Below are positions 1-16,008 of a DNA stretch of 20,000 nucleotides, in pieces. Origin of the DNA: Candidatus Jordarchaeales archaeon (GTDB taxonomy: Archaea; Asgardarchaeota; Jordiarchaeia; Jordiarchaeales; Freyrarchaeaceae); assembly GCA_038889235.1 (NCBI GenBank), contig JAWAHN010000001.1, positions 1,090,803-1,110,802 on the forward strand, in the 5' to 3' direction. Both the position numbers and the translations under genes were made by a program. The notes below the pieces were generated by a model, which saw nothing but the letters and a program-made list of their open reading frames with translations, was not told where the DNA came from and did no database searches. The number at the start of each line of letters is the position of its first letter. Positions within the stretch are counted from its first letter, which is position 1.

Positions 1-2
1 AT

Positions 3-899
3 AGACCTAACGTTGTTTTGAGGGCAACTTTGTCTGATAGTTTTGAAGTGTACGGGCAGAAAAGGGATCTAGTTGAAGAGATACTCTGGAGAGTAGCTAG
101 GACCTTTAACATTAACCCGAGGGTTAAAGTGGAGGTCTTAAAGATCATCCCGGAACATGTTGGTTTGGGCTCTAAAACTCAGCTTTCGCTCGCAGTTGCT
201 AAAGCTTTTTCCTTGCTTTTCAACTTGGACTGCAACGTGCGGCGTTTGGCTATGATAACTGGAAGGGGTGGAACGTCAGGTATAGGTGTTGCGGCCTTCG
301 AAAAGGGGGGCTTTATCCTAGACGGGGGGCATAGCTTCGGGAAGGGGAAGCAGAAAGAGAAGTTTCTCCCCTCATCAGCATCCACTGCCCCGCCGGCACC
401 AGTGCTGGTGAGGTACGACATGCCAGAGGACTGGCTTTTCGTGGTGGCAATTCCAGCAGTGGAGAAGGGGGCGCACGGCACTAAGGAAGTGAGTATTTTC
501 GAGAAGTTTTGCCCCATTCCGAGGGACGAAGTGGAAGCTATTTGCCGCCTCGTTTTAATGAAAATACTCCCTGCGGTAGTTGAAAGAGACTTGTCGTCTT
601 TCGGCGAGGGGTTGACTGAGGTCCAAAAGCTTGGTTTCAAAAAACTTGAAATCTCACTTCAACACCCGATAGTAAGAGAGCTCATTCAGGCGATGTTGAA
701 ATGGGGGGCTGCCGGAGCAGGAATGAGCTCATTTGGCCCCGCAGTTTTCGGTGTTGTCGAGGGAAAAAGAGCTGCAGAGTCCCTACTTTCGGAGGTTGAA
801 AAATACCTGGCGCCTATAGGCGGAGAGTGCTTCATAGCTAAGGTTAATAATACTGGAGCCCAAGTTTCCAGAGAGGCGGTTATAGCTGTTCAAAGTTGA
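3..899 (+). CDS. beta-ribofuranosylaminobenzene 5'-phosphate synthase (beta-RFAP synthase) family, 5' end truncated by window edge
   Basis: GHMP-like protein with HVGLGSKTQLSLAVAKA, GRGGTSGIGVAAFEKGGFILDGGH and FLPSSAS motifs typical of RFAP synthases. The frame continues upstream of the listed TTG (RPNVVLRATL...), so the true start is outside the window. Stop TGA at 897-899. Confidence 0.9.
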   Translation, partial: RPNVVLRATLSDSFEVYGQKRDLVEEILWRVARTFNINPRVKVEVLKIIPEHVGLGSKTQLSLAVAKAFSLLFNLDCNVRRLAMITGRGGTSGIGVAAFEKGGFILDGGHSFGKGKQKEKFLPSSASTAPPAPVLVRYDMPEDWLFVVAIPAVEKGAHGTKEVSIFEKFCPIPRDEVEAICRLVLMKILPAVVERDLSSFGEGLTEVQKLGFKKLEISLQHPIVRELIQAMLKWGAAGAGMSSFGPAVFGVVEGKRAAESLLSEVEKYLAPIGGECFIAKVNNTGAQVSREAVIAVQS

Positions 900-930
900 A
901 GTCTTCCATTGCCTTCCCGGGGGAAAGCTG

Positions 931-2010
931 TTGGTTCGCGTGTGTGGCATAGATCCGGGTACTGGTTCGTGGGATATCGTCGGCCTAGATGATGAAGACT
1001 TGGTTCTGGACACTTCAATACCTACCAGAGAGGTTTTGGAGAACCCTTCCCGCATTGTGAAGATTGTCAAGTCAATGGGCTCATTGGATTTGCTCGTAGC
1101 CCCGAGCGGCTACGGTCTGCCACTCGTAAAGCTCAGTGAGCTAAACGAAAAACACTTTTTTCTCCTAACGCTGAAAAAGGAGAGGGAGACACAAGTCGTA
1201 GGGTTGGAGCAGGTTTTGCGTCTTCTAATAAATGAAGGCTTTGAAGGCTACGTTATACCTGGAGTTAAACATCTCCCGTCCATCCCACCCCACAGGAAAG
1301 TTAACAAGATAGATATGGGGACATCCGACAAGCTTTGCAGCGTAGCTCTAGCCCTCTGGGAGTCCGCTAACGACAACAATGCAGACTATAGTGACATCTC
1401 GTTTATCCTGGTGGAAATGGGGGGAGGGTTTACCTCAGTAATAGGGGTAGAACGGGGAAAAATAGTGGACGCCATAGGAGGAGCTGAAGGGTGTATGGGC
1501 TTCATGGCGTGTGGCTGCATGGACGCAGAAGTAGCATACTTGCTGGGCGGCTTTGAAAAAAAGCTGATCTATACCGGTGGGGCAGTCTACATAGCTGGAT
1601 ACGAAGGAATCACCCCTGAAGAGTTTGCCCTCATGGCGGACAGGGATGAACGCTTCAAGCTCGCTTGGGACGCCCTTATCGAGGGAACGGTGAAAGACGT
1701 GATGTCTGTGAGCGCCTCATTAGAGCACTTCGACACAATACTTCTTTCAGGACGCCTCTCAAGGGTCGAAAAGATCAGAAACGAGTTGGAAAAGCGTCTC
1801 TCACGTTTCGCTCCAACGCGGAGAGTTAGGGGCTTCGCTAGAATAGCCAAGGAAGCAGCCCAGGGCGCCGCGCTCATAGCTAACGGGTTAGCGGGAGGAA
1901 GCTGCGAGCCCCTTGTTGAGAGCCTAGGAATAAGAAAGGCTAGTGGTTCCGTGTTGGACTACGTTTACTTTGACAAGATACGCGAGCTGAGGAGGAAGCT
2001 TGGTGCTTAG
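931..2010 (+). CDS. DUF1464-like ASKHA-fold predicted kinase/ATPase
   Basis: 359-aa ORF, TTG start. N-terminal VCGIDPGTGSWDIVGLDD phosphate-1-like motif; ILVEMGGGFTSVIGVERGKIVDAIGG; GAALIANGLAGG near the C-terminus. Confidence 0.75.
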   Translation: MVRVCGIDPGTGSWDIVGLDDEDLVLDTSIPTREVLENPSRIVKIVKSMGSLDLLVAPSGYGLPLVKLSELNEKHFFLLTLKKERETQVVGLEQVLRLLINEGFEGYVIPGVKHLPSIPPHRKVNKIDMGTSDKLCSVALALWESANDNNADYSDISFILVEMGGGFTSVIGVERGKIVDAIGGAEGCMGFMACGCMDAEVAYLLGGFEKKLIYTGGAVYIAGYEGITPEEFALMADRDERFKLAWDALIEGTVKDVMSVSASLEHFDTILLSGRLSRVEKIRNELEKRLSRFAPTRRVRGFARIAKEAAQGAALIANGLAGGSCEPLVESLGIRKASGSVLDYVYFDKIRELRRKLGA

Positions 2011-2734
2011 GCTCGCCTGGGGGATTACGGGAGCAGGTCACTTCATGGTGGAAACTTTCGAAGTCTTCCTCCAGTTGAAGAAAAGCTACAACGTCGCAGT
2101 TACCACCTTCCTATCTAAAGCCGGGGAAGAAGTAGCAAGGATGTATGGCGTCTTCGAGAAGCTAAAGGAGATTTCCCCTGGAGGGTATTACCAGGAGGTT
2201 GTACTGGAAAGGGAGGAAGGGGCAAGCTTCCCCAAGGCTGGGAGATTCGCCTCCGGCAAGTACAGTGCCTTCATAGTCTCCCCGGCGACGTCCAACACTG
2301 TTGCTAAAATGGCGCTCGGCATCTGCGACACCTTGATCACGACAGCCTTCGCTCAGGCCCTGAAAAACAAAGTGCCAGTTTACATAGTCCCGACAGATTA
2401 CAAAGAGGGCGAAGTCGAGACCACCCTACCAGTAATAGTTGACAGGGATAAGTGCGTTGGTTGCAGCTTCTGCCCTCCAGAAGAGTGTTGCCCTAAAAGC
2501 GCCCTCGTAAGGGTTGAAGGAAAACCCAGCGTGAACTTGTTAAAATGCGTCGGCTGCCTGGCATGCGTTAAAGCTTGCCTTTACGAGGCTGTGGTCTTCG
2601 GTAGGAGAGTGAAAACGTTCGTTCGAAGCGTAGACGTGGAAAACGTCAAGAGGTTGTCAGCAATAGGCGGAGTTCATGTTTTAAGTGATCCCAAGGAAAT
2701 AATCCCCCGCCTAAGGAGGGACCTCCAGCTTTGA
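2000..2734 (+). CDS. archaeoflavoprotein AfpA / DmrX-like flavoprotein with two 4Fe-4S clusters
   Basis: LAWGITGAGHFMVETFEVF flavoprotein N-terminus. SPATSNTVAKMALGICDTLITTAFAQALK. Two ferredoxin-like Cys clusters (CVGCSFCPPEECCP; CVGCLACVKAC). Overlaps the previous gene. Confidence 0.85.
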   Translation: MVLRLAWGITGAGHFMVETFEVFLQLKKSYNVAVTTFLSKAGEEVARMYGVFEKLKEISPGGYYQEVVLEREEGASFPKAGRFASGKYSAFIVSPATSNTVAKMALGICDTLITTAFAQALKNKVPVYIVPTDYKEGEVETTLPVIVDRDKCVGCSFCPPEECCPKSALVRVEGKPSVNLLKCVGCLACVKACLYEAVVFGRRVKTFVRSVDVENVKRLSAIGGVHVLSDPKEIIPRLRRDLQL

Positions 2735-4266
2735 GAGTGCTGCTTGTTACAGGCCGTCTCGCCGAAAAGCTAGTTAAGAAATACTGTGAAGGCCTCGGCC
2801 TCGAGGTTGATGTCGCAACAATGCCCGTATCTGTTGCCGCTTTGATCACCCCCCAGATGCTCATAGAGCACCTCAAAGATAAGGTCTCAAAGGAGAAATA
2901 CGACGCCATAATAGTTCCGGGACTTATGCGGGGCAGCGTTAGGGTAGTTGAAGCCGCGCTCGGAATCCCTGTTTTTAAGGGAACAAAGTATGCGTGCGAC
3001 ATACCGTTAATTTTCAAGAACTTCGACCTCCTATCGAAGGAAGAAGCGCTAGACACGGTAATTTCTAGGCTCAGAAGCGACGCATGGAACAGGTTGGAAT
3101 CTCTCACGGGCTCAGGCTTCACCATTGGAAGGGAAGGTGTTAAACCCGTCTACGTTGGTGTAGATGGACCGGTAAGGGTGCTCGCAGAGGTCGTTGACGC
3201 CCCAGCGCTCCCCCGCAACAAAGTGTTGTCGAGAGCAGAGTACTTTTTGAGGTCTGGAGCTGACATGATAGACATAGGAGGAGTGGTGGGAGAGGAGCAC
3301 CCCAGCATAATATCTGAGTTGGTGCACTGTGTAAGGGAAAAATTTAAGGTCCCTGTAAGTGTGGACAGCCTAAACCCTGCCGAAATAGAAGCCGCCGTGG
3401 CTGCTGGCGCCGACATGGTTCTCAGCTTAGACTACGGAAACTTCCACGAGGTCAAGCTTCCACCCGACGTAGCAGTAACCGTTCTACCAACTAACGAGAA
3501 GAAAGGGGAGATCCCGAGGGATCCAGCCGAGAGAGCGCGGAAAACGCTTGAAATAGTTGAGAAAGCCAAGAAAGCTGGACTAGTCAAAGTAGTAGCTGAC
3601 CCGCTGCTTGAGCCACCCATAACCCCCGGTCTCGTCAATTCCCTTAAATCCTACATCTTTTTCAGGGAAGCTGACACGGTTACACCTCTCCTCTTTGGAG
3701 TTGGAAATGTGACCGAGTTCATTGACGTCGACAGCATAGGGGTAAACGCTCTCCTAACCATGCTGGCACAGGAGCTGGGCGCCGCTATACTCCTAACAAC
3801 TGAGCACAGCATTAAGTGCCGTGGAAGTGTGAGGGAGCTTGACGCCGCAAGGAAAATGGCATACCTAGCGAAGTCCTTGTCTACTCCGCCAAAAGACCTT
3901 GGTATAGCGTTCTTCGCCGCAAAGAGTAAAAAGGAGTACTTTGTACCTCCAAACGTGGATGGATTGAAAGCAGTGGCTGAGGCGAGAAACGACAGCTACT
4001 CCCCCGACCCCCTCGGCTACTTCACAATATGGGTTGACCACGAAAAAGGCAAGATATTCGTGCTGTACAAAGGCGTCAAGGGGGAAAAGCTTTTCGTTGG
4101 GGAGAGCTCCGAGTACATAGGCAAAGCCATTCTTTCAGAAGGAGTAATAAGCTCGCTGGAGCACGCCGTATACCTCGGCAGGGAGCTTGGAAAGGCAGAA
4201 GCCTGCCTGAAGCTCGGTAAAAGCTACGTTCAAGATCTCGACGTTTTCGGTGATAAAAATGAGTAA
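2731..4266 (+). CDS. dihydropteroate synthase-like protein
   Basis: TIM-barrel pterin-binding region (SRAEYFLRSGADMIDIGGVVGEEHPSI, VPVSVDSLNPAEIEAAVAAGADMVLSLD). Adjacent to MptA and RFAP synthase. 4-nt overlap with the upstream gene. Confidence 0.85.
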   Translation: MRVLLVTGRLAEKLVKKYCEGLGLEVDVATMPVSVAALITPQMLIEHLKDKVSKEKYDAIIVPGLMRGSVRVVEAALGIPVFKGTKYACDIPLIFKNFDLLSKEEALDTVISRLRSDAWNRLESLTGSGFTIGREGVKPVYVGVDGPVRVLAEVVDAPALPRNKVLSRAEYFLRSGADMIDIGGVVGEEHPSIISELVHCVREKFKVPVSVDSLNPAEIEAAVAAGADMVLSLDYGNFHEVKLPPDVAVTVLPTNEKKGEIPRDPAERARKTLEIVEKAKKAGLVKVVADPLLEPPITPGLVNSLKSYIFFREADTVTPLLFGVGNVTEFIDVDSIGVNALLTMLAQELGAAILLTTEHSIKCRGSVRELDAARKMAYLAKSLSTPPKDLGIAFFAAKSKKEYFVPPNVDGLKAVAEARNDSYSPDPLGYFTIWVDHEKGKIFVLYKGVKGEKLFVGESSEYIGKAILSEGVISSLEHAVYLGRELGKAEACLKLGKSYVQDLDVFGDKNE

Positions 4267-5212
4267 CCTACCGGACGTTCAAAGCGAGAAACCCAAAATA
4301 CTCCTCTCACTAGACGAGGTAGGAGTAACGGGTCTCGTGAAAAGGGTTCGGATAGTTAAAGGGGGAAGCGAGATATTTTTAACGCCAAAAATTTCTGCAT
4401 TCATAAATCTCCCCGCATGGCAGAGAGGGGTGCATCTTTCAAGAAGTAGTGAAACAATTGAAAGTGTGGTTGAGGACATAGCTTACTCCCCAGTTAGAAG
4501 CTTCGAGGAGCTTTGTAGAAAGATGCTAACGGTCCTCTTGGAAAAACATGACTACGCTGACAGGGCGAGAGTGCTCTTGGAAGGACTTGTAGTTCTCGAC
4601 GTGAGGGCTGGCGAGAGTGAAGTTAAGCGTCAAAAAGCTTACAACGTACGTGTCGAAGGCGTAGCCTCGCGGAGCAGGGAGGGAATCGAAACCAGGGTTT
4701 TCCTAGGAGTGGAGGTTGAGGGGATAATTGCTTGCCCTTGCGCTCAGGAACTTATAAGAAACTACGCGGAAAGCATGATTAAAAGCAGGGCTGAAGAGCT
4801 CTCACTAGACGAACCTGTGATACACAAGATCCTAGATTTGGTTCCCCTCGCATCTCACAGTCAGCGCTGTAAAGGTGCGCTTATAGTGGAGGTGAAAGAC
4901 AACAGCGTAGACCTCTTCGAGCTAATTAGAGTGGTCGAGGACTCGATGAGCGGCACGATATATGACGTCTTAAAGAGGCCAGACGAAGCTAGCCTCGTAA
5001 GGCTCGTTCACTTAAACCCGCTTTTCGTCGAGGATGTCGCGAGACTAATAATACTAAACGCCCTGACAAGGCTTAAACAGCTCTCCGACGACGACGTTTT
5101 AGAGGTCAGAGTTGAAAGCATGGAGTCCGTACACCCTCATAACGCTGTGGCATTCAGGAGAGCCAAAGTCGGGGAACTTAAGAAGGAGCTGCAGGCTGGT
5201 TGTGTAGATTGA
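4250..5212 (+). CDS. mptA: GTP cyclohydrolase MptA-type (FolE2-like)
   Basis: DVQSEKPKILLSLDEVGVTGLVKRVRI, INLPAWQRGVHLSRSSE, GIIACPCAQELIRNYAE, PLASHSQRCKGALIVEV, VHPHNAVAFRRAKVGEL are hallmarks of the MptA/FolE2 family. True start may be the ATG at 4259. Confidence 0.92.
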   Translation: MIKMSNLPDVQSEKPKILLSLDEVGVTGLVKRVRIVKGGSEIFLTPKISAFINLPAWQRGVHLSRSSETIESVVEDIAYSPVRSFEELCRKMLTVLLEKHDYADRARVLLEGLVVLDVRAGESEVKRQKAYNVRVEGVASRSREGIETRVFLGVEVEGIIACPCAQELIRNYAESMIKSRAEELSLDEPVIHKILDLVPLASHSQRCKGALIVEVKDNSVDLFELIRVVEDSMSGTIYDVLKRPDEASLVRLVHLNPLFVEDVARLIILNALTRLKQLSDDDVLEVRVESMESVHPHNAVAFRRAKVGELKKELQAGCVD

Positions 5213-6216
5213 TCGTAGAAGGCTTCTTTGTTGAAGACGTCAATGGGTTTATATTCGACGTTAAAGGTTTGCTTCATCCACCGGATAGGATTATAGCTTA
5301 CTTGCGTTATTTCCCCGACTTGGAAGGGGATCGGGAGAGAAGGGGAGTAAAGTACCGCAAAGTTTACTCCCTCGCAGAAAGGGACGCTATACTCAAGGCT
5401 AGAAAGCCTAACTACTTATACTTCGACCCGGTCTTCGGCATGTTCCTGGAAGGCGTTCCAAGAAATGAGATAGCTAGAATTTACGACCCCCGCGAAAAAC
5501 TCCACCACCTTTTGAGGAGTGAGCGAAACAGCTTGGAGGAAGCCGCAGTCTTCCTCGCGCTCGAGGTAGTTAAGACAGCCAAAATATCTCTCAGCTCTCT
5601 TGGCGTATCTGGCTCAATCCTCGTAGATCTAGCGGGGGAGGGTTCTGACGTCGACATAGTGGTTTTCGGTGAGAAGAACTCTCGGAAGGCTTACGAGGCT
5701 TTAGGTGACCTCATGGCCGAAGGAAAACTAGTGAAAGCTTACGATGAAAATGGTTTGAAGAAGCTCTACGACTTCCGATTCAAGGACACCGTTATGAGCT
5801 ACGAGGACTTCGTGTGGAGTGAGCGGAGGAAACACATGTCCGGGACTGTTATGGGCTACGATTTCTTTGTTCGCTTCGTGAAGTTCCCCGAAGAGTACGG
5901 AGAGCGTTACGGCGAGAGGAGGTATAAGCCCTTAGGCAGCGCGCTTGTTAGAGGGGTGGTAGTCGACGACTCGGACGCTATTTTCACCCCGTGTCGCTAC
6001 GTGTTGGGTGACGTAGAAGTCCTGGACGGCGTAAAGAAACCCGTAGTTGAAATATTCTCGTTAAGGGGCCGCTTCAGCGACCAAGCAAGGGAAGGAGAAG
6101 AAGTTTTAGCTAGGGGGAAAGTTGAAGCCGTCTCATATGAGGGCGGCGAGTATTTTAGGCTTGTCATAGGAGGGGAAAGAGGCGACTTCCTAATAGTAAG
6201 AAGGGAGGCGACTTGA
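5209..6216 (+). CDS. predicted nucleotidyltransferase-like protein (paralog 1)
   Basis: LGVSGSILVDLAGEGSDVDIVVFG matches a nucleotidyltransferase GS...DxD motif. ORF extends to TTG 5200, but TTG 5209 sits in a start/stop overlap with mptA. Confidence 0.7.
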   Translation: MIVEGFFVEDVNGFIFDVKGLLHPPDRIIAYLRYFPDLEGDRERRGVKYRKVYSLAERDAILKARKPNYLYFDPVFGMFLEGVPRNEIARIYDPREKLHHLLRSERNSLEEAAVFLALEVVKTAKISLSSLGVSGSILVDLAGEGSDVDIVVFGEKNSRKAYEALGDLMAEGKLVKAYDENGLKKLYDFRFKDTVMSYEDFVWSERRKHMSGTVMGYDFFVRFVKFPEEYGERYGERRYKPLGSALVRGVVVDDSDAIFTPCRYVLGDVEVLDGVKKPVVEIFSLRGRFSDQAREGEEVLARGKVEAVSYEGGEYFRLVIGGERGDFLIVRREAT

Positions 6217-6220
6217 ACAC

Positions 6221-7246
6221 ATGCGGACTGAAAAAGACAGAGACTTTATAAGGACTAGCGAGAAGTTCTTCTTCTGCGTAGTGGGTTACGAGCACCCACC
6301 AGACAGGGTGCTAGCATATCTCAAGTATATCCCAAGCCCTTTTGGGAAATGGGGGGGCACCACCCGCTTCCACAGGGTTCTCGCAAGGTATGATGCAGCC
6401 TCTGTTTCAGACACGTTTTCAATACTGGAGAAATATCCCAAGTACCTTTTCCACTCCGAAGTGTACGGCATCACGTTCTCGGCGGTTCCTAGAAGCGAGA
6501 TAGTGGAGGAGTATTACCCTGAAGTCAAAGTTGCAAGCTTGATGAACCAGAGCGAGCTTGACCCTCTTCAGTCGAAGGCCATCTCCTTGATAAAGTTGTT
6601 ATCCGAGGAAAGTGGGGTCCCTGTGGAAAAGTTCGGGATCACAGGATCCATACTAATAGATATCCATAACCCTTCGTTCTCAGACATAGATCTAACAGTT
6701 TACGGCAGAGGAAACTCCCTTGCCGTGAAGGAAACCCTTCTAGATTTGAGAGGTAGCGCGATCGTCCCGTTCTCTGGCAGCACAGCTGAGGAGTGGGTTC
6801 GAAAGAAAGAGGGCGTCTTCCAGCTTTCAAAGGCGCAGGCCCGTAAGATATTGGAGCGAAAGTGGAACATAGGTTTCTATGAAGGCACAAGGTTCTCTAT
6901 ACACCCAGTTAAAGACGACGCGGAAATATGCGAAGTCTACGGCGGGAAGTTTTACAAGAGCCTCGGCTTCTGCACTATTGAAGCCACTGTTTCATCATGC
7001 CGCGACGCACTATTTCTCCCATGCCGCTATGAGGTGGAAGATGTTGCCTTCCTGGAGGGAAAACGCGTTGAGAACGTTAGAGAGGTAGTCTCCTATGAGG
7101 GACTTTTCTGCGACATAGCAGGTGAGGGCGAAAGGATAAGGGTGCGCGGCAAACTGGAAAGGGTGGAAGGAGAAAGGGAAGAGTACTATAGGGTGCTAGT
7201 CGGCTCGCAGGAAGCTAAGGCCGGAGACTTCATACACCTCATATAA
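6221..7246 (+). CDS. predicted nucleotidyltransferase-like protein (paralog 2)
   Basis: FGITGSILIDIHNPSFSDIDLTVYG motif. Collinear similarity to the upstream neighbour throughout (HPPDRVLAYLKYIP, CRYEVEDVAFLEG). Confidence 0.7.
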   Translation: MRTEKDRDFIRTSEKFFFCVVGYEHPPDRVLAYLKYIPSPFGKWGGTTRFHRVLARYDAASVSDTFSILEKYPKYLFHSEVYGITFSAVPRSEIVEEYYPEVKVASLMNQSELDPLQSKAISLIKLLSEESGVPVEKFGITGSILIDIHNPSFSDIDLTVYGRGNSLAVKETLLDLRGSAIVPFSGSTAEEWVRKKEGVFQLSKAQARKILERKWNIGFYEGTRFSIHPVKDDAEICEVYGGKFYKSLGFCTIEATVSSCRDALFLPCRYEVEDVAFLEGKRVENVREVVSYEGLFCDIAGEGERIRVRGKLERVEGEREEYYRVLVGSQEAKAGDFIHLI

Positions 7247-7248
7247 AC

Positions 7249-7566
7249 CTACTTTTTCACGACGCCGAGTAGCTTTCGGCCTTCCTCGACAAACGTCTCC
7301 CAGATCCTTTGAGCTTCTTCCGGGTTTTTCGAGGATGTGACCTCTGAAAGCAATTTTAGGAAGGCGCCTATCAACGGGTGCTTTATCAGGCGAAGCTCCT
7401 CAGTCATCACGTTAACATAGCTTACTAGAGCTGAGTCAACCTTGGTCAGCATGCCTGTTACGTCTTTCAAAACTAGTCCGCCATCCTCCATCTTGATATA
7501 AACTACGTCTTCCGCAACTTCCTTCTCGCTGTACCCCTCTTCAACCCTAACCTTAAATTCACACAA
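7249..7566 (-). CDS. CooT-like small protein with C-terminal extension
   Basis: N-terminus MCEFKVRVEEGYSEKEVAEDVVYIKMEDGGLVLKDVTGML resembles the MC-E... CooT nickel-binding family. About 40 extra C-terminal residues. Confidence 0.55.
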   Translation of the reverse strand: MCEFKVRVEEGYSEKEVAEDVVYIKMEDGGLVLKDVTGMLTKVDSALVSYVNVMTEELRLIKHPLIGAFLKLLSEVTSSKNPEEAQRIWETFVEEGRKLLGVVKK

Positions 7567-10609: not shown

Positions 10610-11557
10610 CTAGTAGCGTAGCCCCTCGAGCAGGTACACGAATATCGATGCAGCTGTCAAATCCGCGGTGGCTCCTGGGTTTAGCCTGCCACCGCTGCTA
10701 TGCAACTCTTCATCAAGCATCCAACACAGCCTTCTCCCTTCAGGCGTGGATATTCCTCCCGCTTCCAGCACCTCCTTCGCCCTAACGCTAACATACTCTG
10801 CAGCTTTCGCCCCTGCCTTTCTGATTATAAGGGTATCAGGTTTCTCTGAAAGTATCCTCAGAAAAGTGTTCACTGTGGCGATGTTCACATCTCTTTCCTC
10901 CTCGAGGTATTTCTTGAAGCTTGGATATCCCAAGTCGAACACCGTACTCATGCCATTAACCCACTCAGCACTTATGGCGTCCCACCCCGCGCTTATGGCG
11001 AAAATGTCCTTCAGTGAGACTCCTTCTGAAACAATCTTCTCCCTAAAAGCTGGGTCGTTAACGTCGAACTTCTCCACCTCACCCAGCCCACCAGGCTTTA
11101 CTATACGTATTGCTTCGTAAACGTTCACCGCATCCTCCACGGTTGACCCATCGATAACCTTCACGACATTTTTTCTAAGGAGCGTTGAGGAAACCCCACC
11201 TGACAAAGCGAAGCACATTCCTGCAGCGGCAGAGAGGGGAGCGAATAAGAGTATTTCACCCAGGTTAGTGTTACCCCCCTTATGCCATCTAGAAGCGCAC
11301 TTAACCGCTTCGAGTACATAGTAACCCAAACTTATCTCCTTGACATCTATCTCTCCCCTTCCCGCCTTTCTCCCTCTCTCGGCAAGTCTCCCCATTGAAG
11401 GCCCTACCGCTACAGCGCCTGCTAAGAAGTGCTCGAACCGTGTATCGTGCGCGTCACGCAAGCGATGCACGTTACCAGGCTTCGGGTAGCCGCTCACTTC
11501 AAGTAGCATTGCCAGCGTCGCACATTTGGCAACGTATTCCTCAATGCTTTCCTCCAT
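10610..11557 (-). CDS. CitG-like / triphosphoribosyl-dephospho-CoA synthase family protein
   Basis: LLEVSGYPKPGNVHRLRDAHDTRFEHFL, GNTNLGEILLFAPLSAA, PDTLIIRKAGAKAAEYVS, LNPGATADLTAASIFVYLL are characteristic of the CitG/MdcB-like fold family. Confidence 0.8.
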   Translation of the reverse strand: MEESIEEYVAKCATLAMLLEVSGYPKPGNVHRLRDAHDTRFEHFLAGAVAVGPSMGRLAERGRKAGRGEIDVKEISLGYYVLEAVKCASRWHKGGNTNLGEILLFAPLSAAAGMCFALSGGVSSTLLRKNVVKVIDGSTVEDAVNVYEAIRIVKPGGLGEVEKFDVNDPAFREKIVSEGVSLKDIFAISAGWDAISAEWVNGMSTVFDLGYPSFKKYLEEERDVNIATVNTFLRILSEKPDTLIIRKAGAKAAEYVSVRAKEVLEAGGISTPEGRRLCWMLDEELHSSGGRLNPGATADLTAASIFVYLLEGLRY

Positions 11558-12995: not shown

Positions 12996-13412
12996 CTAAC
13001 TTGCGGGTTTAAATGTTAAAATGGTTTTTCCGTTTTTCTCTAAGAATTCTGCTTCGACGTCCATACCTATCTGTATTTTTTCTGGTTTCTTTAAGTCGAA
13101 ACCTACTAGGCGTGCTGTTATCCTAGCCCCCTTCTCCAGTTCAACCACCCCGAAGGCGTACGGTTTTTCTCTTCCGTGTCCCTCAGCGATGAGCGGGGTT
13201 GGAGGAACGTGGACGATGGAGAACGTTACCAGTTTTCCTTTTCCCTTGAGCTCAATCCATTCTAAATCTGAGCTGCGGCAGTTCTTGCAGATGGGTCGCG
13301 GCGGTAAATTAATCACGCCACACTTTTTGCACTTTGCAGCCATGATCTTCCTTTTGTTTAGGAATTCCCTAAACTTGCTTACAGTAAACTCCATTGTGCT
13401 CAAAGCGCTCAC
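12996..13412 (-). CDS. DUF35 / zinc-ribbon plus OB-fold acyl-CoA-associated protein
   Basis: CKKCGVINLPPRPICKNCRSSDLEWIELKGKGKLVTFSIVHVPPTPL...PYAFGVVELEKGARITARLVG. Immediately downstream of the thiolase. Confidence 0.88.
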   Translation of the reverse strand: MSALSTMEFTVSKFREFLNKRKIMAAKCKKCGVINLPPRPICKNCRSSDLEWIELKGKGKLVTFSIVHVPPTPLIAEGHGREKPYAFGVVELEKGARITARLVGFDLKKPEKIQIGMDVEAEFLEKNGKTILTFKPAS

Positions 13413-14683
13413 CTCCTAAAAATGTGCACAGTGCAGCTTGCACCTGAACCGCCGACGTTGTGGGTTAACCCGACCTCAACGCCGGGAACCTGTCTTGCAC
13501 CCGCTTCTCCCCTAAGCTGATGCCATATCTCAACTACTTGCGCCACTCCGGTAGCTCCAACGGGGTGTCCCTTCGCCTTCAATCCCCCTGATGTATTAAT
13601 CGGTTTCTCTCCATTTCTCCTAGTTAGCCCTTCCTCAACTGCTTTTCCTCCTTCTCCTGGTTTGAAGAAACCTAAATCTTCTGTTGCAACTATCTCAGCT
13701 ATTGTAAAGCAGTCGTGTACCTCGGCTATCTCTATGTCCTTCGGCCTTAATCCTGCCATTTTGTAAGCTTTTTCGGCTGCAACCCTAGCCGCTCTTAGCG
13801 AAGTGATTTCTTCTCTATCGTGAAGGGCGAGCGAGTCGCTTCCTTGCCCAGTCCCGACCACGTGTATTGGTGTATCTGTAAACTTTCTTGCCACCTCCTC
13901 CGCTGCTAGTATTACGACTGCGGCTCCGTCGGTGATGGGACTGCAGTCGAAGAGTCTGAGGGGCCATGCTATAACTGGGTTTGCATCTGGATCACTTAGA
14001 AAGTCCATTTCATCCTTCCAGCTTGGAGCAGGGAGCCCCTTAGCTTTTGCCCGCTCAGCTCTAGCTTTCATTATGTCCCTTATTGTTGACTGGAATTGCG
14101 CCTTAGGATTCAGGGCCCCATTCTCGTGGTTTTTGATTCCAACCATTCTCAGTTGCTCAATTGTCGTTCCATATTTCCTCATGTGCGCGTTCGCTATTTC
14201 AGCATACAAACCTGGAAAAGTGGCTCCTGCGGAAAACTCATACACTGAATCAGCGGCTGAGGCTAACACGTCTGTTACCCTCGATGTTTCGAGGTTGGTC
14301 ATCTTTTCAACTCCCGCAACGCAGACTACGTCGTGCGCCCCGGAAGCCACTGCCAGTATTCCGAGCCTCAGGGCGGCACCACCGCTAGCGCAAGCATTCT
14401 CTACTCTCATAGCCGGGCCGGGAGTAATGCCGACTAGGTCAGCCATTAGGGGGCCGGTGTGCACCTGCCCTTCAAATATGTCGTTTGAAAAATTCCCCAG
14501 GAATAGCGCCTCTATCTCGCGTGTTTCTATCCCCTTATCCACGCTCTTGACCGCCTCGACGAAAGCCTCCACGAAAAGCTCCCTAGTTGTCTTGTCGGGA
14601 AAAGCTCCGAACTTACTCATTCCGGCACCAATTACTGCCACACCTCGCGCCAACTTCCCCAATGGGGGAACACCTCCCCGCAA
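13409..14683 (-). CDS. thiolase / acetyl-CoA C-acetyltransferase family
   Basis: VAVIGAGMSKFGAF, RVENACASGGAALRLG, EVHDCFTIAEI, KPINTSGGLKAKGHPVGATGVAQVVEIWHQL, GLTHNVGGSGASCTVHIF. Confidence 0.9.
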   Translation of the reverse strand: MRGGVPPLGKLARGVAVIGAGMSKFGAFPDKTTRELFVEAFVEAVKSVDKGIETREIEALFLGNFSNDIFEGQVHTGPLMADLVGITPGPAMRVENACASGGAALRLGILAVASGAHDVVCVAGVEKMTNLETSRVTDVLASAADSVYEFSAGATFPGLYAEIANAHMRKYGTTIEQLRMVGIKNHENGALNPKAQFQSTIRDIMKARAERAKAKGLPAPSWKDEMDFLSDPDANPVIAWPLRLFDCSPITDGAAVVILAAEEVARKFTDTPIHVVGTGQGSDSLALHDREEITSLRAARVAAEKAYKMAGLRPKDIEIAEVHDCFTIAEIVATEDLGFFKPGEGGKAVEEGLTRRNGEKPINTSGGLKAKGHPVGATGVAQVVEIWHQLRGEAGARQVPGVEVGLTHNVGGSGASCTVHIFRR

Positions 14684-14846
14684 ACGCCTACCATGGCTTT
14701 TTTTATTAACGACGCTTGCTCAAGTTACCGTTTATCTTTACAGCAGCCGAATACGAGCCGTTTGAACACTCAACCCCCTTCTATATAAATTTTCTAGCCA
14801 GCAATAGTTTGCTTGAACCTCAAGGGGGTAACAGTCAAAAGGGAAA

Positions 14847-14857
14847 AGCTTTATATT
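14847..14857 (+). promoter_or_regulatory. putative BRE/TATA box for the permuted 5S rRNA gene
   Basis: GGGAAAAGCTTTATATTC (14841-14858). TATA-like TTTATAT lies roughly 25-30 nt upstream of the start of the processing stem at 14880. Confidence 0.55.
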
Positions 14858-14879
14858 CGCTTTTTTGGTTGATAATTCC

Positions 14880-15039
14880 TGCTGGGCGCCACGGCGTGAA
14901 AGTCAAGCCCGCATGCGATTCGGCGAGTACTGCTGTGCGGGAGCCAGCGGGAAAGCCGAATGCTGGCGCTACGGCGCCGGCCATAGCATGCGGGGATATA
15001 CCCGTTCCCATTCCGAACACGGATCCGTGGCGTCCAGCA
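14880..15039 (+). ncRNA. precursor of circularly permuted 5S rRNA, enclosed by a 15-bp terminal processing helix
   Basis: 14880-14894 TGCTGGGCGCCACGG pairs with 15025-15039 CCGTGGCGTCCAGCA (15 consecutive pairs, one G-U). Inside it, 14895-14898 CGTG pairs with 15018-15021 CACG. Bulges are AAA (14899-14901) and GAT (15022-15024), a bulge-helix-bulge-like geometry. Confidence 0.8.
14901..15023 (+). rRNA. 5S rRNA, circularly permuted gene (3' half encoded upstream of 5' half); predicted 123-nt circular mature form
   Basis: 3' half first: AGTCAAGCCCGCATGC-GATTCGGCGAGTACTG...GGGAAAGCCGAAT-GCTGGCGC. Then TACG, then 5' half: GCGCCGGC-CATA-GCATGCGGG-GATATACCCGTTCCCATTCCGAACACGGA. Helix I 14962-14969/14974-14981 (8 bp), helix II 14986-14994/14908-14916 (9 bp), helix III CCGT 15002-15005/ACGG 15019-15022, helix V 14918-14924/14955-14961 (7 bp), helix IV GCTG 14932-14935/CAGC 14945-14948 plus GC/GC with a GGGA loop. 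Joining 15023 to 14901 gives the canonical CGGAAGUCAAG. Confidence 0.88.
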
Positions 15040-15042
15040 TGT

Positions 15043-15060
15043 GCTTTTCTTCTTGTTTTC
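15043..15060 (+). terminator. T-rich putative terminator downstream of 5S rRNA
   Basis: GCTTTTCTTCTTGTTTTC directly after the processing stem; pyrimidine/T-rich tracts are typical of archaeal termination. Confidence 0.5.
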
Positions 15061-15126
15061 CAAGGTAACTTTAATACAGGGTACCTATCCTTCTTTTTCT
15101 GTGAAGTGTTCGTTGGGGTTGTATAT

Positions 15127-16008
15127 ATGACAAAGCCCAGGCTTTACATAGATGAGAGCAGTCCTCCTATATCCGATAACCTCTACGAAAAGATAGCCGC
15201 GCACAGGAAGCTTTACAGGAAGCTTGTTTTCTCCGGCAAGGCTGTTAAGCGTCTTAGGGGGATTTTGCCCTCTTCAGAATTGGTGAGGATGCTCAGGGGG
15301 GGCGGGGGGAAGCTTAGGCGCTTCGATATAATGATCGAGTTGTATTGTGACGTTGAGACTGAAAGTAGAGTTAAGTCTCTGTACGACGAAGTGTGTAGCA
15401 CGTACCCGCCTCAAAAGTCGTCTATTAGTCTTGCGTCAGAAGGCGAGGAGCCTGCCCCCCTGAGGCTCGGGTTGAGCTGGGAAGACGTCTCGTTCGATGC
15501 TTGGGCACTTATAGAGCGTTTTTACAGCGTCATAGAGGAACCATTCTACGTTAACTTCGAATTCGAAGACGACGAGAAGGTGGTGTCCGCCGTAAATCTC
15601 TCAGTTCCCTTCGATGAGGAAAGGAGGCAGTTCTACCTCGTGGAGCTTGTCACCCCGTTCAGGGTGAAGTATCCTAGTGGGGAAGAAAGGTTACTGGGCA
15701 AGCTTTCGTCGCTTGTGGAGGAGGTAACGAGCAACCCAAATGTGACCCCCGAGCTTTTTGTGATCGGTCGAGGCGGCATGTGGAAGCCGCTGATAACCGT
15801 CGGCTGGTCTTTTAACGATGGCCGCTTACTCGTGAAGGTTCCAGAGTGGAATGGTAAGGGTGGAATAGAGTTCATCTTGGACCCCATTAACGGCAAGGTT
15901 CAACTGATCAAGGGAGATCTTAAGGTTGAAAAGGACGGTAAGCTGGGGAACGTGTCGCTCGATGCCGTTCAGTTTTTCGAGCTGGGGGGAGATGAGCTCT
16001 CAAGTTAG
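15127..16008 (+). CDS. hypothetical protein
   Basis: In-frame ATG at 15127 (MTKPRLYIDESSPPISDNLYEK...). The ORF-track start at 14716 would run through the 5S rRNA, so the ATG at 15127 is preferred. Confidence 0.6.
   Translation: MTKPRLYIDESSPPISDNLYEKIAAHRKLYRKLVFSGKAVKRLRGILPSSELVRMLRGGGGKLRRFDIMIELYCDVETESRVKSLYDEVCSTYPPQKSSISLASEGEEPAPLRLGLSWEDVSFDAWALIERFYSVIEEPFYVNFEFEDDEKVVSAVNLSVPFDEERRQFYLVELVTPFRVKYPSGEERLLGKLSSLVEEVTSNPNVTPELFVIGRGGMWKPLITVGWSFNDGRLLVKVPEWNGKGGIEFILDPINGKVQLIKGDLKVEKDGKLGNVSLDAVQFFELGGDELSS

What the first reader, a model, noticed from the sequence alone, without database searches (positions are those of the whole stretch)
14880..15039. Bulge-helix-bulge-like processing stem predicted to excise and circularise the 5S rRNA like an intron
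A 15-bp helix (14880-14894 with 15025-15039) brackets the permuted gene. It stacks on a 4-bp helix (CGUG 14895-14898 with CACG 15018-15021), with a 3-nt bulge on each strand (AAA 14899-14901; GAU 15022-15024) placed on opposite strands as in tRNA-intron BHB motifs. Archaeal endonuclease cleavage after the second bulge nucleotide (14900|14901 and 15023|15024) and ligation of the excised piece gives ...CGAACACGGA|AGUCAAGCC..., exactly the canonical loop B sequence. The mature 5S would be a 123-nt circle encoded as the 'intron'. The inner helix below the 5' bulge is weak or absent, so this is a relaxed BHB.
Basis: partly seen in the sequence, partly recalled or inferred. Interest (0 to 1): 0.93.

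Follow-up and report, generated by a model that had tools for sequence, protein, structure and literature searches.

The report
Permuted 5S rRNA gene, splice-circularised
In a group of Asgard archaea the 5S ribosomal RNA gene is written back to front and sits inside a conserved stem that looks like a tRNA-intron splice signal, so the RNA is most likely cut out and joined into a circle, which has not been reported for 5S rRNA.

Summary
A 15-bp helix (14880-14894 with 15025-15039) stacks on CGUG/CACG. The bulges AAA and GAU are staggered as in archaeal bulge-helix-bulge (BHB) splice sites. Cutting after the second nucleotide of each bulge releases 14901-15023, 123 nt. This is a complete 5S rRNA in permuted order, with helix I capped by a UACG tetraloop.

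The organism is an Asgard archaeon of the class Jordarchaeia (also called Freyarchaeota). I found the same arrangement in 11 distinct sequence variants from four subgroups. The outer helix differs between them (9-16 bp), and 9 of its 15 pairs show compensating changes on both sides. One subgroup has a 1-nt deletion in the leader and a 1-nt insertion in the trailer. Every variant predicts the same junction, ACACGGAAGUCAAG. One subgroup also carries a textbook 32-nt BHB intron inside the 5S. All variants have a TATA box 21-24 nt upstream of the helix.

Cleavage by the tRNA splicing endonuclease and circularisation are inferred, since no RNA data were available. The motif is relaxed: it has no inner helix, and its central helix competes with 5S helix III. 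The closest precedent is the permuted circular SRP RNA of Thermoproteus. I found no report of this for 5S rRNA.

The parts
14842..14857 (+). Archaeal promoter: purine-rich BRE-like GGAAAAGC followed by the TATA box TTTATATT (14850-14857)
   Evidence: TTTATAT is invariant in all 11 variants. Its end lies 21-24 nt upstream of the first paired base of the outer helix, whatever the helix length. This places the transcription start at about 14879-14881. The start site is inferred from the usual archaeal spacing between TATA box and start site.
14880..14894 (+). 5' strand of the outer (processing) helix, in the leader
   Evidence: Pairs with 15025-15039 over 15 bp. Nine of the 15 pairs change on both sides across 11 variants. 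RNAalifold predicts the helix.
14895..14898 (+). Leader strand (CGUG) of the 4-bp central helix of the BHB-like motif
   Evidence: Pairs with CACG 15018-15021. CGUG-AAA is invariant in subgroups A, C and D, although the adjacent outer helix has diverged. Subgroup B has CUGG-AAG instead.
14899..14901 (+). 5' bulge AAA, with the predicted cut at 14900|14901. It lies in a multibranch loop because there is no inner helix.
   Evidence: The cut position is inferred from the BHB rule, which the subgroup D intron validates.
14901..14969 (+). 3' part of the 5S rRNA (canonical positions 51-119): loop B 3' side, helix II 3' strand, helices V and IV with loop E, helix I 3' strand
   Evidence: Partial Rfam 5S alignment, fold, covariation in helices II, IV, V and I.
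14970..14973 (+). UACG tetraloop joining the canonical 3' and 5' ends and closing helix I
   Evidence: The loop is UACG in subgroup A, CACG in B and CUCG in C and D, always 4 nt of the form YNCG.
14974..15023 (+). 5' part of the 5S rRNA (canonical positions 1-50): helix I 5' strand, loop A, helix II 5' strand, loop B, helix III and loop C
   Evidence: Rfam hit to model positions 27-51 at 15000-15024. nhmmer match to profile positions 5-55.
15018..15021 (+). 5S-internal strand (CACG) of the central helix. It overlaps the 3' strand of mature helix III (ACGG 15019-15022).
   Evidence: The BHB conformer lies only 1.7-2.3 kcal/mol above the minimum free energy in subgroup A.
15022..15024 (+). 3' bulge GAU, with the predicted cut at 15023|15024
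   Evidence: The third, discarded nucleotide varies (U or A) among variants, while the first two do not vary within a register.
15025..15039 (+). 3' strand of the outer helix, in the trailer
15045..15059 (+). T-rich tract (TTTTCTTCTTGTTTT), the likely archaeal oligo-T terminator
   Evidence: A run of at least four T lies 5-24 nt after the helix in 9 of 11 variants. The two exceptions (subgroup D) run straight into a tRNA-Trp gene. Function is inferred.

Best explanation
This is the working 5S rRNA gene of a Jordarchaeia (Asgard) archaeon, encoded in circularly permuted order. A short transcript starts about 22 nt downstream of a TATA box and ends at an oligo-T tract. Its 21-nt leader and 16-nt trailer pair into a 15-bp helix, which is extended by a 4-bp helix between leader CGUG and 5S CACG. 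This presents two 3-nt bulges in the bulge-helix-bulge geometry recognised by the archaeal tRNA splicing endonuclease (EndA). EndA cuts after the second nucleotide of each bulge, at 14900|14901 and 15023|15024. The RtcB ligase then joins the 2',3'-cyclic phosphate and 5'-OH ends of the excised 123-nt piece. That ligation recreates the universally conserved ...CCGAACACGGAAGUCAAGCC... stretch between helix III and loop B, and gives a covalently closed 5S rRNA whose helix I is capped by a UACG tetraloop.

Shown here: the permuted gene, the conserved and covarying stem, the BHB-like geometry, and the identical predicted junction in all relatives.

Inferred: the enzyme identities, the ligation, and that the circle is the form used in the ribosome.
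For: - The sequence and geometry are exactly as described.
- The re-ordered RNA is a full 5S by fold and by profile alignment.
- There are 11 distinct variants in four subgroups from independent assemblies (NCBI, JGI, ENA, Logan).
- In the outer helix, 9 of 15 pairs have changes on both sides. In the whole structure, 24 pairs do, with 97.1% of cells paired against 32-44% in slid controls. RNAalifold agrees.
- Compensating indels in subgroup B preserve the cut-site distances and the junction.
- A canonical BHB intron inside the subgroup D 5S has boundaries that match the cleavage rule exactly.
- The BHB conformer is energetically close to the minimum, at +1.7 to +2.3 kcal/mol in subgroup A.
- The TATA box is conserved at a fixed distance and oligo-T follows the helix.
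- The same lineage has a tRNA-Trp with three introns, so BHB splicing is used heavily there.
- There is a direct precedent. The permuted SRP RNA of Thermoproteus tenax has a leader-trailer BHB that recombinant endonuclease cuts, and circular junction reads were observed (PMC4731332).
Against: - No RNA-level data were available: no junction reads and no end mapping.
- There is no inner helix, so the 5' cut site lies in a multibranch loop. This is a relaxed motif that not all archaeal endonuclease types cut.
- The central helix competes with mature helix III, so the substrate fold is not the minimum-energy fold.
- In subgroup B the central helix is only 3 bp plus a G-A mismatch, and the conformer costs about 5.6 kcal/mol at 37 °C (3.8-5.0 at 70 °C).
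- I could not scan the whole genomes for a second, canonical 5S gene.
- I did not examine the EndA and RtcB genes of this lineage.
Confidence: 0.7

Rival explanations
1. The stem is a processing signal and the 5S is released, but the ends are not ligated. The mature 5S would be a linear, permuted molecule with its ends between helix III and loop B, either after EndA cleavage or after cleavage and trimming by other nucleases.
For: A relaxed motif with no inner helix. No RNA data. Linear permuted 5S rRNAs with an open junction exist in brown-algal mitochondria (PMC4267664).
Against: BHB-excised RNAs in archaea are routinely circularised (PMC4731332, PMC12918454). Both retained bulge nucleotides are conserved, so that the two ends abut to give exactly the consensus GGAAGU. 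Subgroup B compensates an indel on one side with an indel on the other, which is expected if the two ends must be joined in register. In Thermoproteus, the open form of the permuted SRP RNA bound its proteins poorly.
Confidence: 0.14
2. Circularisation occurs but the circle is only an intermediate. It is re-opened in the helix I cap to give an ordinary linear 5S with canonical ends. [quoted passage not shown]
For: Precedents: permuted tRNAs in Cyanidioschyzon and Thermofilum (PMC3218864, and citations), and circular pre-rRNA intermediates that are re-linearised (PMC10515664).
Against: The cap is always exactly 4 nt (UACG, CACG or CUCG). In subgroup A it is the very stable C(UACG)G form. There is no spacer or recognisable processing signal. 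A tetraloop is what one expects if the loop stays in the product.
Confidence: 0.11
3. The locus is a rearranged 5S pseudogene or fragment, and the inverted repeat is incidental. The real 5S is elsewhere in the genome.
For: I could not scan the complete genomes. Rfam's 5S model does not reach its threshold here.
Against: The arrangement is conserved across deeply diverged subgroups, whose neighbouring protein is only 45-48% identical. Compensatory changes occur in every variable 5S helix and in the flanking stem. The promoter is conserved. No other 5S-like sequence was found in about 350 kb of Jordarchaeial loci held here.
Confidence: 0.03

Closest known systems
Permuted, circularised SRP RNA of Thermoproteus tenax and T. 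uzoniensis (Plagens et al. 2015, eLife, PMC4731332)
   Same: A universal structured RNA is encoded in permuted order, so standard covariance models miss it. It has its own TATA promoter and a short leader (23 nt there, 21 nt here). Leader and trailer pair into a BHB with a 4-bp central helix. The ligated junction restores a conserved functional element. The host lineage has many tRNA introns.
   Different: The RNA differs (5S rRNA, a ribosome component, against SRP RNA), and so does the lineage (Asgard Jordarchaeia against Thermoproteales). Here the trait spans at least four diverged subgroups rather than a few species of one genus. Here the canonical ends are closed by a 4-nt tetraloop. For Thermoproteus, cleavage and circular junctions were shown experimentally. 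Here they are only predicted.
BHB processing stems and circular forms of archaeal 16S and 23S rRNA (PMC12918454, PMC7758197, PMC10515664)
   Same: A long leader-trailer helix carries a BHB. EndA cuts it and ligation gives circular rRNA species. Circular 23S has been reported inside ribosomes.
   Different: Those genes are colinear, not permuted. The literature states explicitly that 5S rRNA does not follow this route (PMC12918454). The known archaeal 5S maturation pathways use other endonucleases and exonucleases at A/U-rich motifs (PMC10515664).
Permuted tRNA genes (Cyanidioschyzon merolae; Thermofilum pendens, PMC3218864)
   Same: The 3' half is encoded upstream of the 5' half. A BHB forms at the junction of leader and trailer. 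The splicing machinery circularises the RNA.
   Different: In tRNAs the circle is an intermediate that is re-opened at the acceptor-stem ends. Here the canonical ends are sealed by a tetraloop with no obvious re-opening signal.
Permuted mitochondrial 5S rRNA of brown algae and other stramenopiles (Valach et al. 2014, PMC4267664; Rfam mtPerm-5S)
   Same: It is a 5S rRNA whose ends are not in helix I.
   Different: In the organelle case the final RNA is linear and permuted at the alpha domain, where a hairpin replaces helix I. There is no BHB and no ligation. The breakpoint also differs: the alpha/gamma junction there, between helix III and loop B here. Rfam, which holds that model, gives no such hit here.

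Membership tests
5S rRNA (Rfam RF00001) | Three-way junction with helices I-V, supported by covariation | tested here: met
   The re-ordered 119-nt sequence folds into the canonical shape. Helices I, II, IV and V all show pairs changed on both sides across 11 variants. Helix III is invariant and always paired.
5S rRNA (Rfam RF00001) | Conserved loop sequences: loop A CCAUAG, loop C CCCAUUCCGAAC, GGAAGUCAAGCC, and loop E GAGUACU with GGGAAA | tested here: met
   All are present. They align to the Rfam consensus in two pieces and to a profile of 77 ordinary 5S genes. GGAAGUCAAGCC exists only after the predicted ligation.
5S rRNA (Rfam RF00001) | Colinear gene order reaching the curated gathering score of 38 bits | tested here: not met
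   No hit at gathering in the window or in nine related loci. The partial hits score 21.5 and 19.3 bits. The failure comes from the permutation, not from divergence.
Archaeal bulge-helix-bulge splice motif (hBHBh') | Two 3-nt bulges on opposite strands, separated by a 4-bp helix and staggered as in pre-tRNA | tested here: met
   Window and subgroups A, C and D: CGUG/CACG with AAA and GAU or GAA. Subgroup B has 3 bp plus a G-A mismatch with bulges AAG and AAA, so it meets the feature only loosely.
Archaeal bulge-helix-bulge splice motif (hBHBh') | Outer helix h next to the 3' bulge | tested here: met
   9-16 bp in all variants. Nine of 15 pairs covary.
Archaeal bulge-helix-bulge splice motif (hBHBh') | Inner helix h' next to the 5' bulge | tested here: not met
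   At most 2 bp can form (U14903-A15016 and C14904-G15015). Constrained folds leave this region open. The motif is therefore a relaxed helix-bulge-helix-loop form. Plagens et al. define a BHB as a 4-bp helix flanked by at least one 3-nt bulge.
Archaeal bulge-helix-bulge splice motif (hBHBh') | Cleavage 2 nt into each bulge gives a sensible product | tested here: met
   The predicted junction is the 5S consensus in all 11 variants despite a shifted breakpoint. The same rule reproduces the alignment-defined boundaries of the subgroup D intron.
Archaeal bulge-helix-bulge splice motif (hBHBh') | Actual cleavage by the splicing endonuclease and ligation by RtcB | not testable with these tools
   This needs RNA sequencing or enzyme assays.
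Permuted gene restored by circularisation (Thermoproteus SRP RNA type) | Permuted gene with its own promoter, and a leader and trailer that form the BHB | tested here: met
   compared.
Permuted gene restored by circularisation (Thermoproteus SRP RNA type) | Circular mature RNA shown by junction reads | not testable with these tools
   No transcriptome data were accessible.
mtPerm-5S (organelle permuted 5S) | Helix I replaced by a 5' hairpin, linear product, ends at the alpha/gamma junction | tested here: not met
   Here helix I is intact and capped, and the breakpoint lies between helix III and loop B. No Rfam hit to that model.

The most novel reading that the evidence does not exclude
Ribosomes of a whole class of Asgard archaea (Jordarchaeia/Freyarchaeota) contain a covalently circular 5S rRNA made only by the tRNA splicing machinery. 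In one subgroup the same machinery must also remove an intron from the 5S. This would be the first natural circular 5S rRNA, the first permuted 5S gene outside organelles, and the first intron reported in a 5S rRNA gene.
Probability: 0.6. Interest if true: 0.88.

Novelty: new variant of a known kind. Interest (0 to 1): 0.82.

Why it matters
5S rRNA is universal, and its gene is regarded as easy to recognise in every archaeal, bacterial and nuclear genome. Recent work states that archaeal 16S and 23S rRNAs circularise but 5S rRNAs do not (PMC12918454).

If the prediction holds, several things follow.
- In this class, maturation of an essential ribosomal RNA would depend wholly on the tRNA splicing endonuclease and ligase.
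- The circular-rRNA story would extend to the third rRNA, in the archaeal kingdom closest to eukaryotes.
- It would be a natural counterpart to engineered circularly permuted 5S (my own recollection of the ribosome-engineering literature, not checked here).

There is also a practical consequence now. Rfam-based pipelines miss this gene, so genomes of this clade will be scored as lacking 5S. Public gene models meanwhile translate straight through it as false N-terminal extensions of a hypothetical protein.

The prediction can be tested directly. The junction sequence, the circle size and the minimal substrate are all specified.

Tried and rejected
1. **Genome-collection pattern.** GTACYG...CCATAGC...CCATNCCGAAC had too weak a first element.
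2. **Metagenome pattern.** The pattern was specific, with no false hits among 100 ordinary 5S loci. It was too strict, because it required CATAGC and AAGC. It found only three contigs of subgroups A and B and missed subgroups C and D.
3. **A wrong early conclusion.** I first concluded that the sister clade lacks the permuted gene. It is absent next to the syntenic protein, and Sun et al. report a 5S gene in Ca. Jordarchaeum. A profile search of the held loci overturned this. The gene sits 3.6 kb away and is permuted there too. The published '5S present' may be a partial hit, and I do not count it as evidence either way.
4. **Alternative registers for the subgroup B central helix.** I tried 3' bulges of 2 or 4 nt and a shortened outer helix. 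None pairs better than CUG/CGG plus G-A.
5. **A BHB that keeps helix III intact.** None exists. With helix III formed, the three helices meet in an open junction with no bulge-helix-bulge.
6. **Searches that returned nothing.** ARAGORN found no tRNA in the window or in seven related loci. Whole-window Rfam found nothing at E <= 1.
7. **Chance or pseudogene.** Both are rejected on covariation and promoter conservation.
8. **Literature.** Searches for permuted or circular 5S in archaea found only the organelle case.

Full report
**1. The observation**

- 14880-14894 (UGCUGGGCGCCACGG) pairs with 15025-15039 (CCGUGGCGUCCAGCA) over 15 bp, one of them a G-U pair.
- CGUG 14895-14898 pairs with CACG 15018-15021.
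- AAA 14899-14901 and GAU 15022-15024 are left unpaired on opposite strands.

The order of elements is that of archaeal pre-tRNA splice sites. The 5' strand runs outer helix, 4-bp helix, bulge. The 3' strand runs 4-bp helix, bulge, outer helix. Among inverted repeats within 250 nt in the 20-kb window, this one has the highest complementarity (I5).

**2. What lies inside the stem**

Rfam finds nothing at its curated thresholds. In permissive mode it reports two partial 5S rRNA matches in the wrong order. The 3' two-thirds of the model matches at about 14899-14966, and model positions 27-51 match at 15000-15024.

Positions 14901-15023 (123 nt) read as follows: 5S positions 51-119, then UACG, then 5S positions 1-50. 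When the sequence is opened at the tetraloop and re-ordered:
- It folds into the canonical three-way junction.
- It aligns colinearly over positions 6-104 of a profile built from 77 ordinary 5S genes, at 45.5 bits. The genomic order aligns only over positions 5-55, at 30.4 bits.

This is therefore a circularly permuted 5S gene. The canonical ends are sealed by a C(UACG)G tetraloop. The new ends lie between helix III and loop B.

**3. The organism**

Proteins of the window occur unchanged on contigs of GCA_038821275.1, GCA_038886715.1 and GCA_038824485.1 and on Logan assemblies. The window is identical to Logan contig SRR21619497_14741. Homologues of the neighbouring gene carry the names Candidatus Jordarchaeales, Jordarchaeaceae, Jordarchaeum and Freyarchaeota. 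These belong to the Asgard kingdom Promethearchaeati.

**4. Relatives**

I collected 11 distinct variants of the permuted gene. The sources were one lucky genome-scan hit (L098), loci fetched through the neighbouring protein, one metagenome scan and a profile search of everything held. They fall into four subgroups:

| Subgroup | Loci | Outer helix | Leader (helix strand, bulge) | Trailer (helix strand, bulge) |
|---|---|---|---|---|
| A | window, L108, L109, L110, L121, L126 | 14-16 bp | CGUG-AAA | CACG-GAU, or GAA in L126 |
| B | L098, L112 | 13 bp | CUGG-AAG | ACGG-AAA |
| C | L118 (Ca. Jordarchaeum sp.) | 9 bp, unrelated sequence | CGUG-AAA | CACG-GAA |
| D | L114, L124 | 11 bp | CGUG-AAA | CACG-GAA |

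The neighbouring protein in subgroups C and D is only 45-48% identical to that of the window, so the trait is old within the class.

**5. Covariation**

On the 11-sequence alignment A4 I counted pairs for the outer helix plus the canonical 5S helices.
- 97.1% of cells form standard pairs, against 32-44% when partners are slid by 1-3 columns.
- 24 pairs show changes on both sides, against 1-4 in the slid controls.
- 9 of those 24 pairs are among the 15 pairs of the outer helix.
- None of 500 column shuffles reaches the observed percentage paired or covariation score.

RNAalifold predicts the outer helix and helices I, II, IV and V without guidance. The gene and its flanking stem are therefore both under selection for pairing.

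**6. Evidence that the stem is a splice-type signal and not just a stem**

(a) Cutting 2 nt into each bulge gives the same ligated sequence, ACACGGAAGUCAAG, in all 11 variants. This is the universal 5S consensus.

(b) Relative to subgroup A, subgroup B has lost one leader nucleotide and gained one trailer nucleotide. Its gene breakpoint is therefore shifted by one position. The cut sites still lie 6 nt after the outer helix on the 5' strand and 1 nt before it on the 3' strand, and the product is unchanged.

(c) The third nucleotide of the 3' bulge, which would be discarded, varies (U or A). The retained nucleotides do not vary.

(d) Leader CGUG-AAA is not 5S sequence. It is nevertheless invariant in subgroups A, C and D, while the adjoining outer helix has changed at most positions. 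This is expected if it must pair with the invariant 5S CACG.

(e) Subgroup D carries a 32-nt insertion in the 5' strand of helix III (ACCC|AUAGUGCUGGACGCCGCCCAGCAAUAGUAGAA|GUUC).
- It is present in four independent assemblies, with one substitution in its terminal loop.
- Its boundaries are fixed without ambiguity by alignment to the intron-less subgroup C sequence.
- It folds as a textbook hBHBh' motif: outer GGGAA/UUCUC, central CUAC/GUAG, bulges CCA and AAG, and an inner hairpin.
- The alignment-defined boundaries fall exactly after the second nucleotide of each bulge.

This is an internal control for the cleavage rule. It also shows that 5S maturation in this class already needs the splicing endonuclease.

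(f) Just downstream of the 5S in subgroups C and D lies a roughly 250-nt gene. It is called tRNA-Trp(CCA) once three inserted segments are removed, and one of those segments resembles a C/D-box sRNA. The lineage therefore uses BHB splicing heavily.

**7. The transcription unit**

TTTATAT is invariant. Its end lies 21-24 nt upstream of the first paired base of the outer helix in every variant, although helix length ranges from 9 to 16 bp. This puts the transcription start at the foot of the stem (inferred from usual archaeal spacing). A run of at least four T follows the stem within 5-24 nt in 9 of 11 variants. Subgroup D runs directly into the tRNA-Trp gene and is probably co-transcribed with it.

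**8. Weak points**

- There is no inner helix, so the 5' cut site lies in a multibranch loop. This is a relaxed motif.
- The central helix borrows CACG 15018-15021, which overlaps ACGG 15019-22, the 3' strand of mature helix III. The substrate fold and the mature fold therefore exclude each other.
- The BHB-constrained fold costs only 1.7-2.3 kcal/mol more than the minimum in subgroup A. In subgroup B the central helix is 3 bp plus a G-A mismatch, and the cost is about 5.6 kcal/mol at 37 °C (3.8-5.0 at 70 °C).
- I had no RNA data. I could not scan the whole genomes for a second 5S gene, although about 350 kb of held Jordarchaeial DNA contains no other 5S-like sequence. I did not examine the endonuclease genes.

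**9. Mechanism and rivals**

The best-supported reading has three steps. The primary transcript forms the leader-trailer stem. EndA cuts both bulges. RtcB joins the ends of the excised piece into a 122-123-nt circle, or 155 nt before intron removal in subgroup D.

- A linear permuted product is less likely. The two ends are kept in exact register by compensating indels.
- A circle that is later re-opened at helix I is less likely. The cap is always a bare 4-nt YNCG loop.
- A pseudogene is very unlikely given the covariation and the conserved promoter.

**10. Comparison with known systems**

The closest system is the permuted SRP RNA of Thermoproteus (PMC4731332). It has a permuted gene missed by standard models, a TATA box, a 23-nt leader and a leader-trailer BHB that recombinant endonuclease cuts. 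Circular junction reads were observed, and the host is rich in tRNA introns.

BHB stems and circular forms are well known for 16S and 23S rRNA. For 5S the literature says the opposite (PMC12918454) and describes other maturation routes (PMC10515664). The only permuted 5S rRNAs on record are linear mitochondrial ones (PMC4267664). A 2023 survey of natural RNA permutations lists no others (PMC10085705). My searches found no report of a permuted, circular or intron-containing 5S in archaea. The library does not hold most subscription-journal papers, so an unseen report cannot be excluded.

**11. Verdict**

The enzymology and the circular end state remain predictions. This is a new variant of a known kind of system, namely a permuted gene restored by the tRNA splicing machinery. 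Here it applies to a universal ribosomal RNA and is conserved across a class of Asgard archaea.

Noticed in passing
L114 4347-4378 (also L115, L116 and L124 4351-4382): A 32-nt canonical hBHBh' intron lies inside the permuted 5S gene, in the 5' strand of helix III between ACCC and GUUC. It is present in four independent assemblies and absent from the sister subgroup (L118). I know of no other intron reported in a 5S rRNA gene.
   Followed up: yes
L120 4355-4600; L114 about 4425-4645 (starts a few nucleotides after the 5S trailer); L118 about 4540 onward: A roughly 220-250-nt gene with an encoded CCA end that ARAGORN misses. After three inserted segments are removed (D-loop, anticodon loop, T-loop), ARAGORN calls it tRNA-Trp(CCA). 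The anticodon-loop insert resembles a C/D-box sRNA (weak Rfam sR40 and sR3 hits). The T-loop insert fits a strict BHB.
   Followed up: partly
window 14716-16008 (+); L002 18678-19790; L003 18652-19791; L126 5027-6130: Public gene models for the downstream hypothetical protein (370, 379 and 367 aa; P0001, P0006) start upstream of or inside the 5S gene and translate through it. The 293-aa form starting at 15127 matches the other relatives, so the N-terminal extensions are annotation artefacts.
   Followed up: yes
window 15127-16008 (+): A protein with no Pfam domain, found only in Jordarchaeia/Freyarchaeota (17 database clusters). It lies next to the permuted 5S in subgroups A and B, in inverted orientation in B, but 3.6 kb away in subgroups C and D. 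Its function is unknown.
   Followed up: partly
L124 about 3860-4010 (minus strand): Another tRNA-like sequence. It has a GCGCCCA...UGGGCGC acceptor-type pairing, a CUGUCAC anticodon-loop-like stretch and apparent insertions. It is probably a second multi-intron tRNA that standard tools miss.
   Followed up: no
L120 (GCA_038871495.1), 4150-4350: This Jordarchaeaceae contig has the tRNA-Trp gene and the same flanking genes as L114 and L118, but no 5S upstream of it. The 5S of that lineage must lie elsewhere, and I could not find it.
   Followed up: no
window 1-7250 and 10610-11557: A cluster of genes with Pfam domains typical of methanopterin-type cofactor synthesis (GCHY-1, pterin-binding with DUF6513 and DUF4346, a flavoprotein, a GHMP kinase and CitG), next to the archaeal thiolase/DUF35 pair at 12996-14683.
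   Followed up: no
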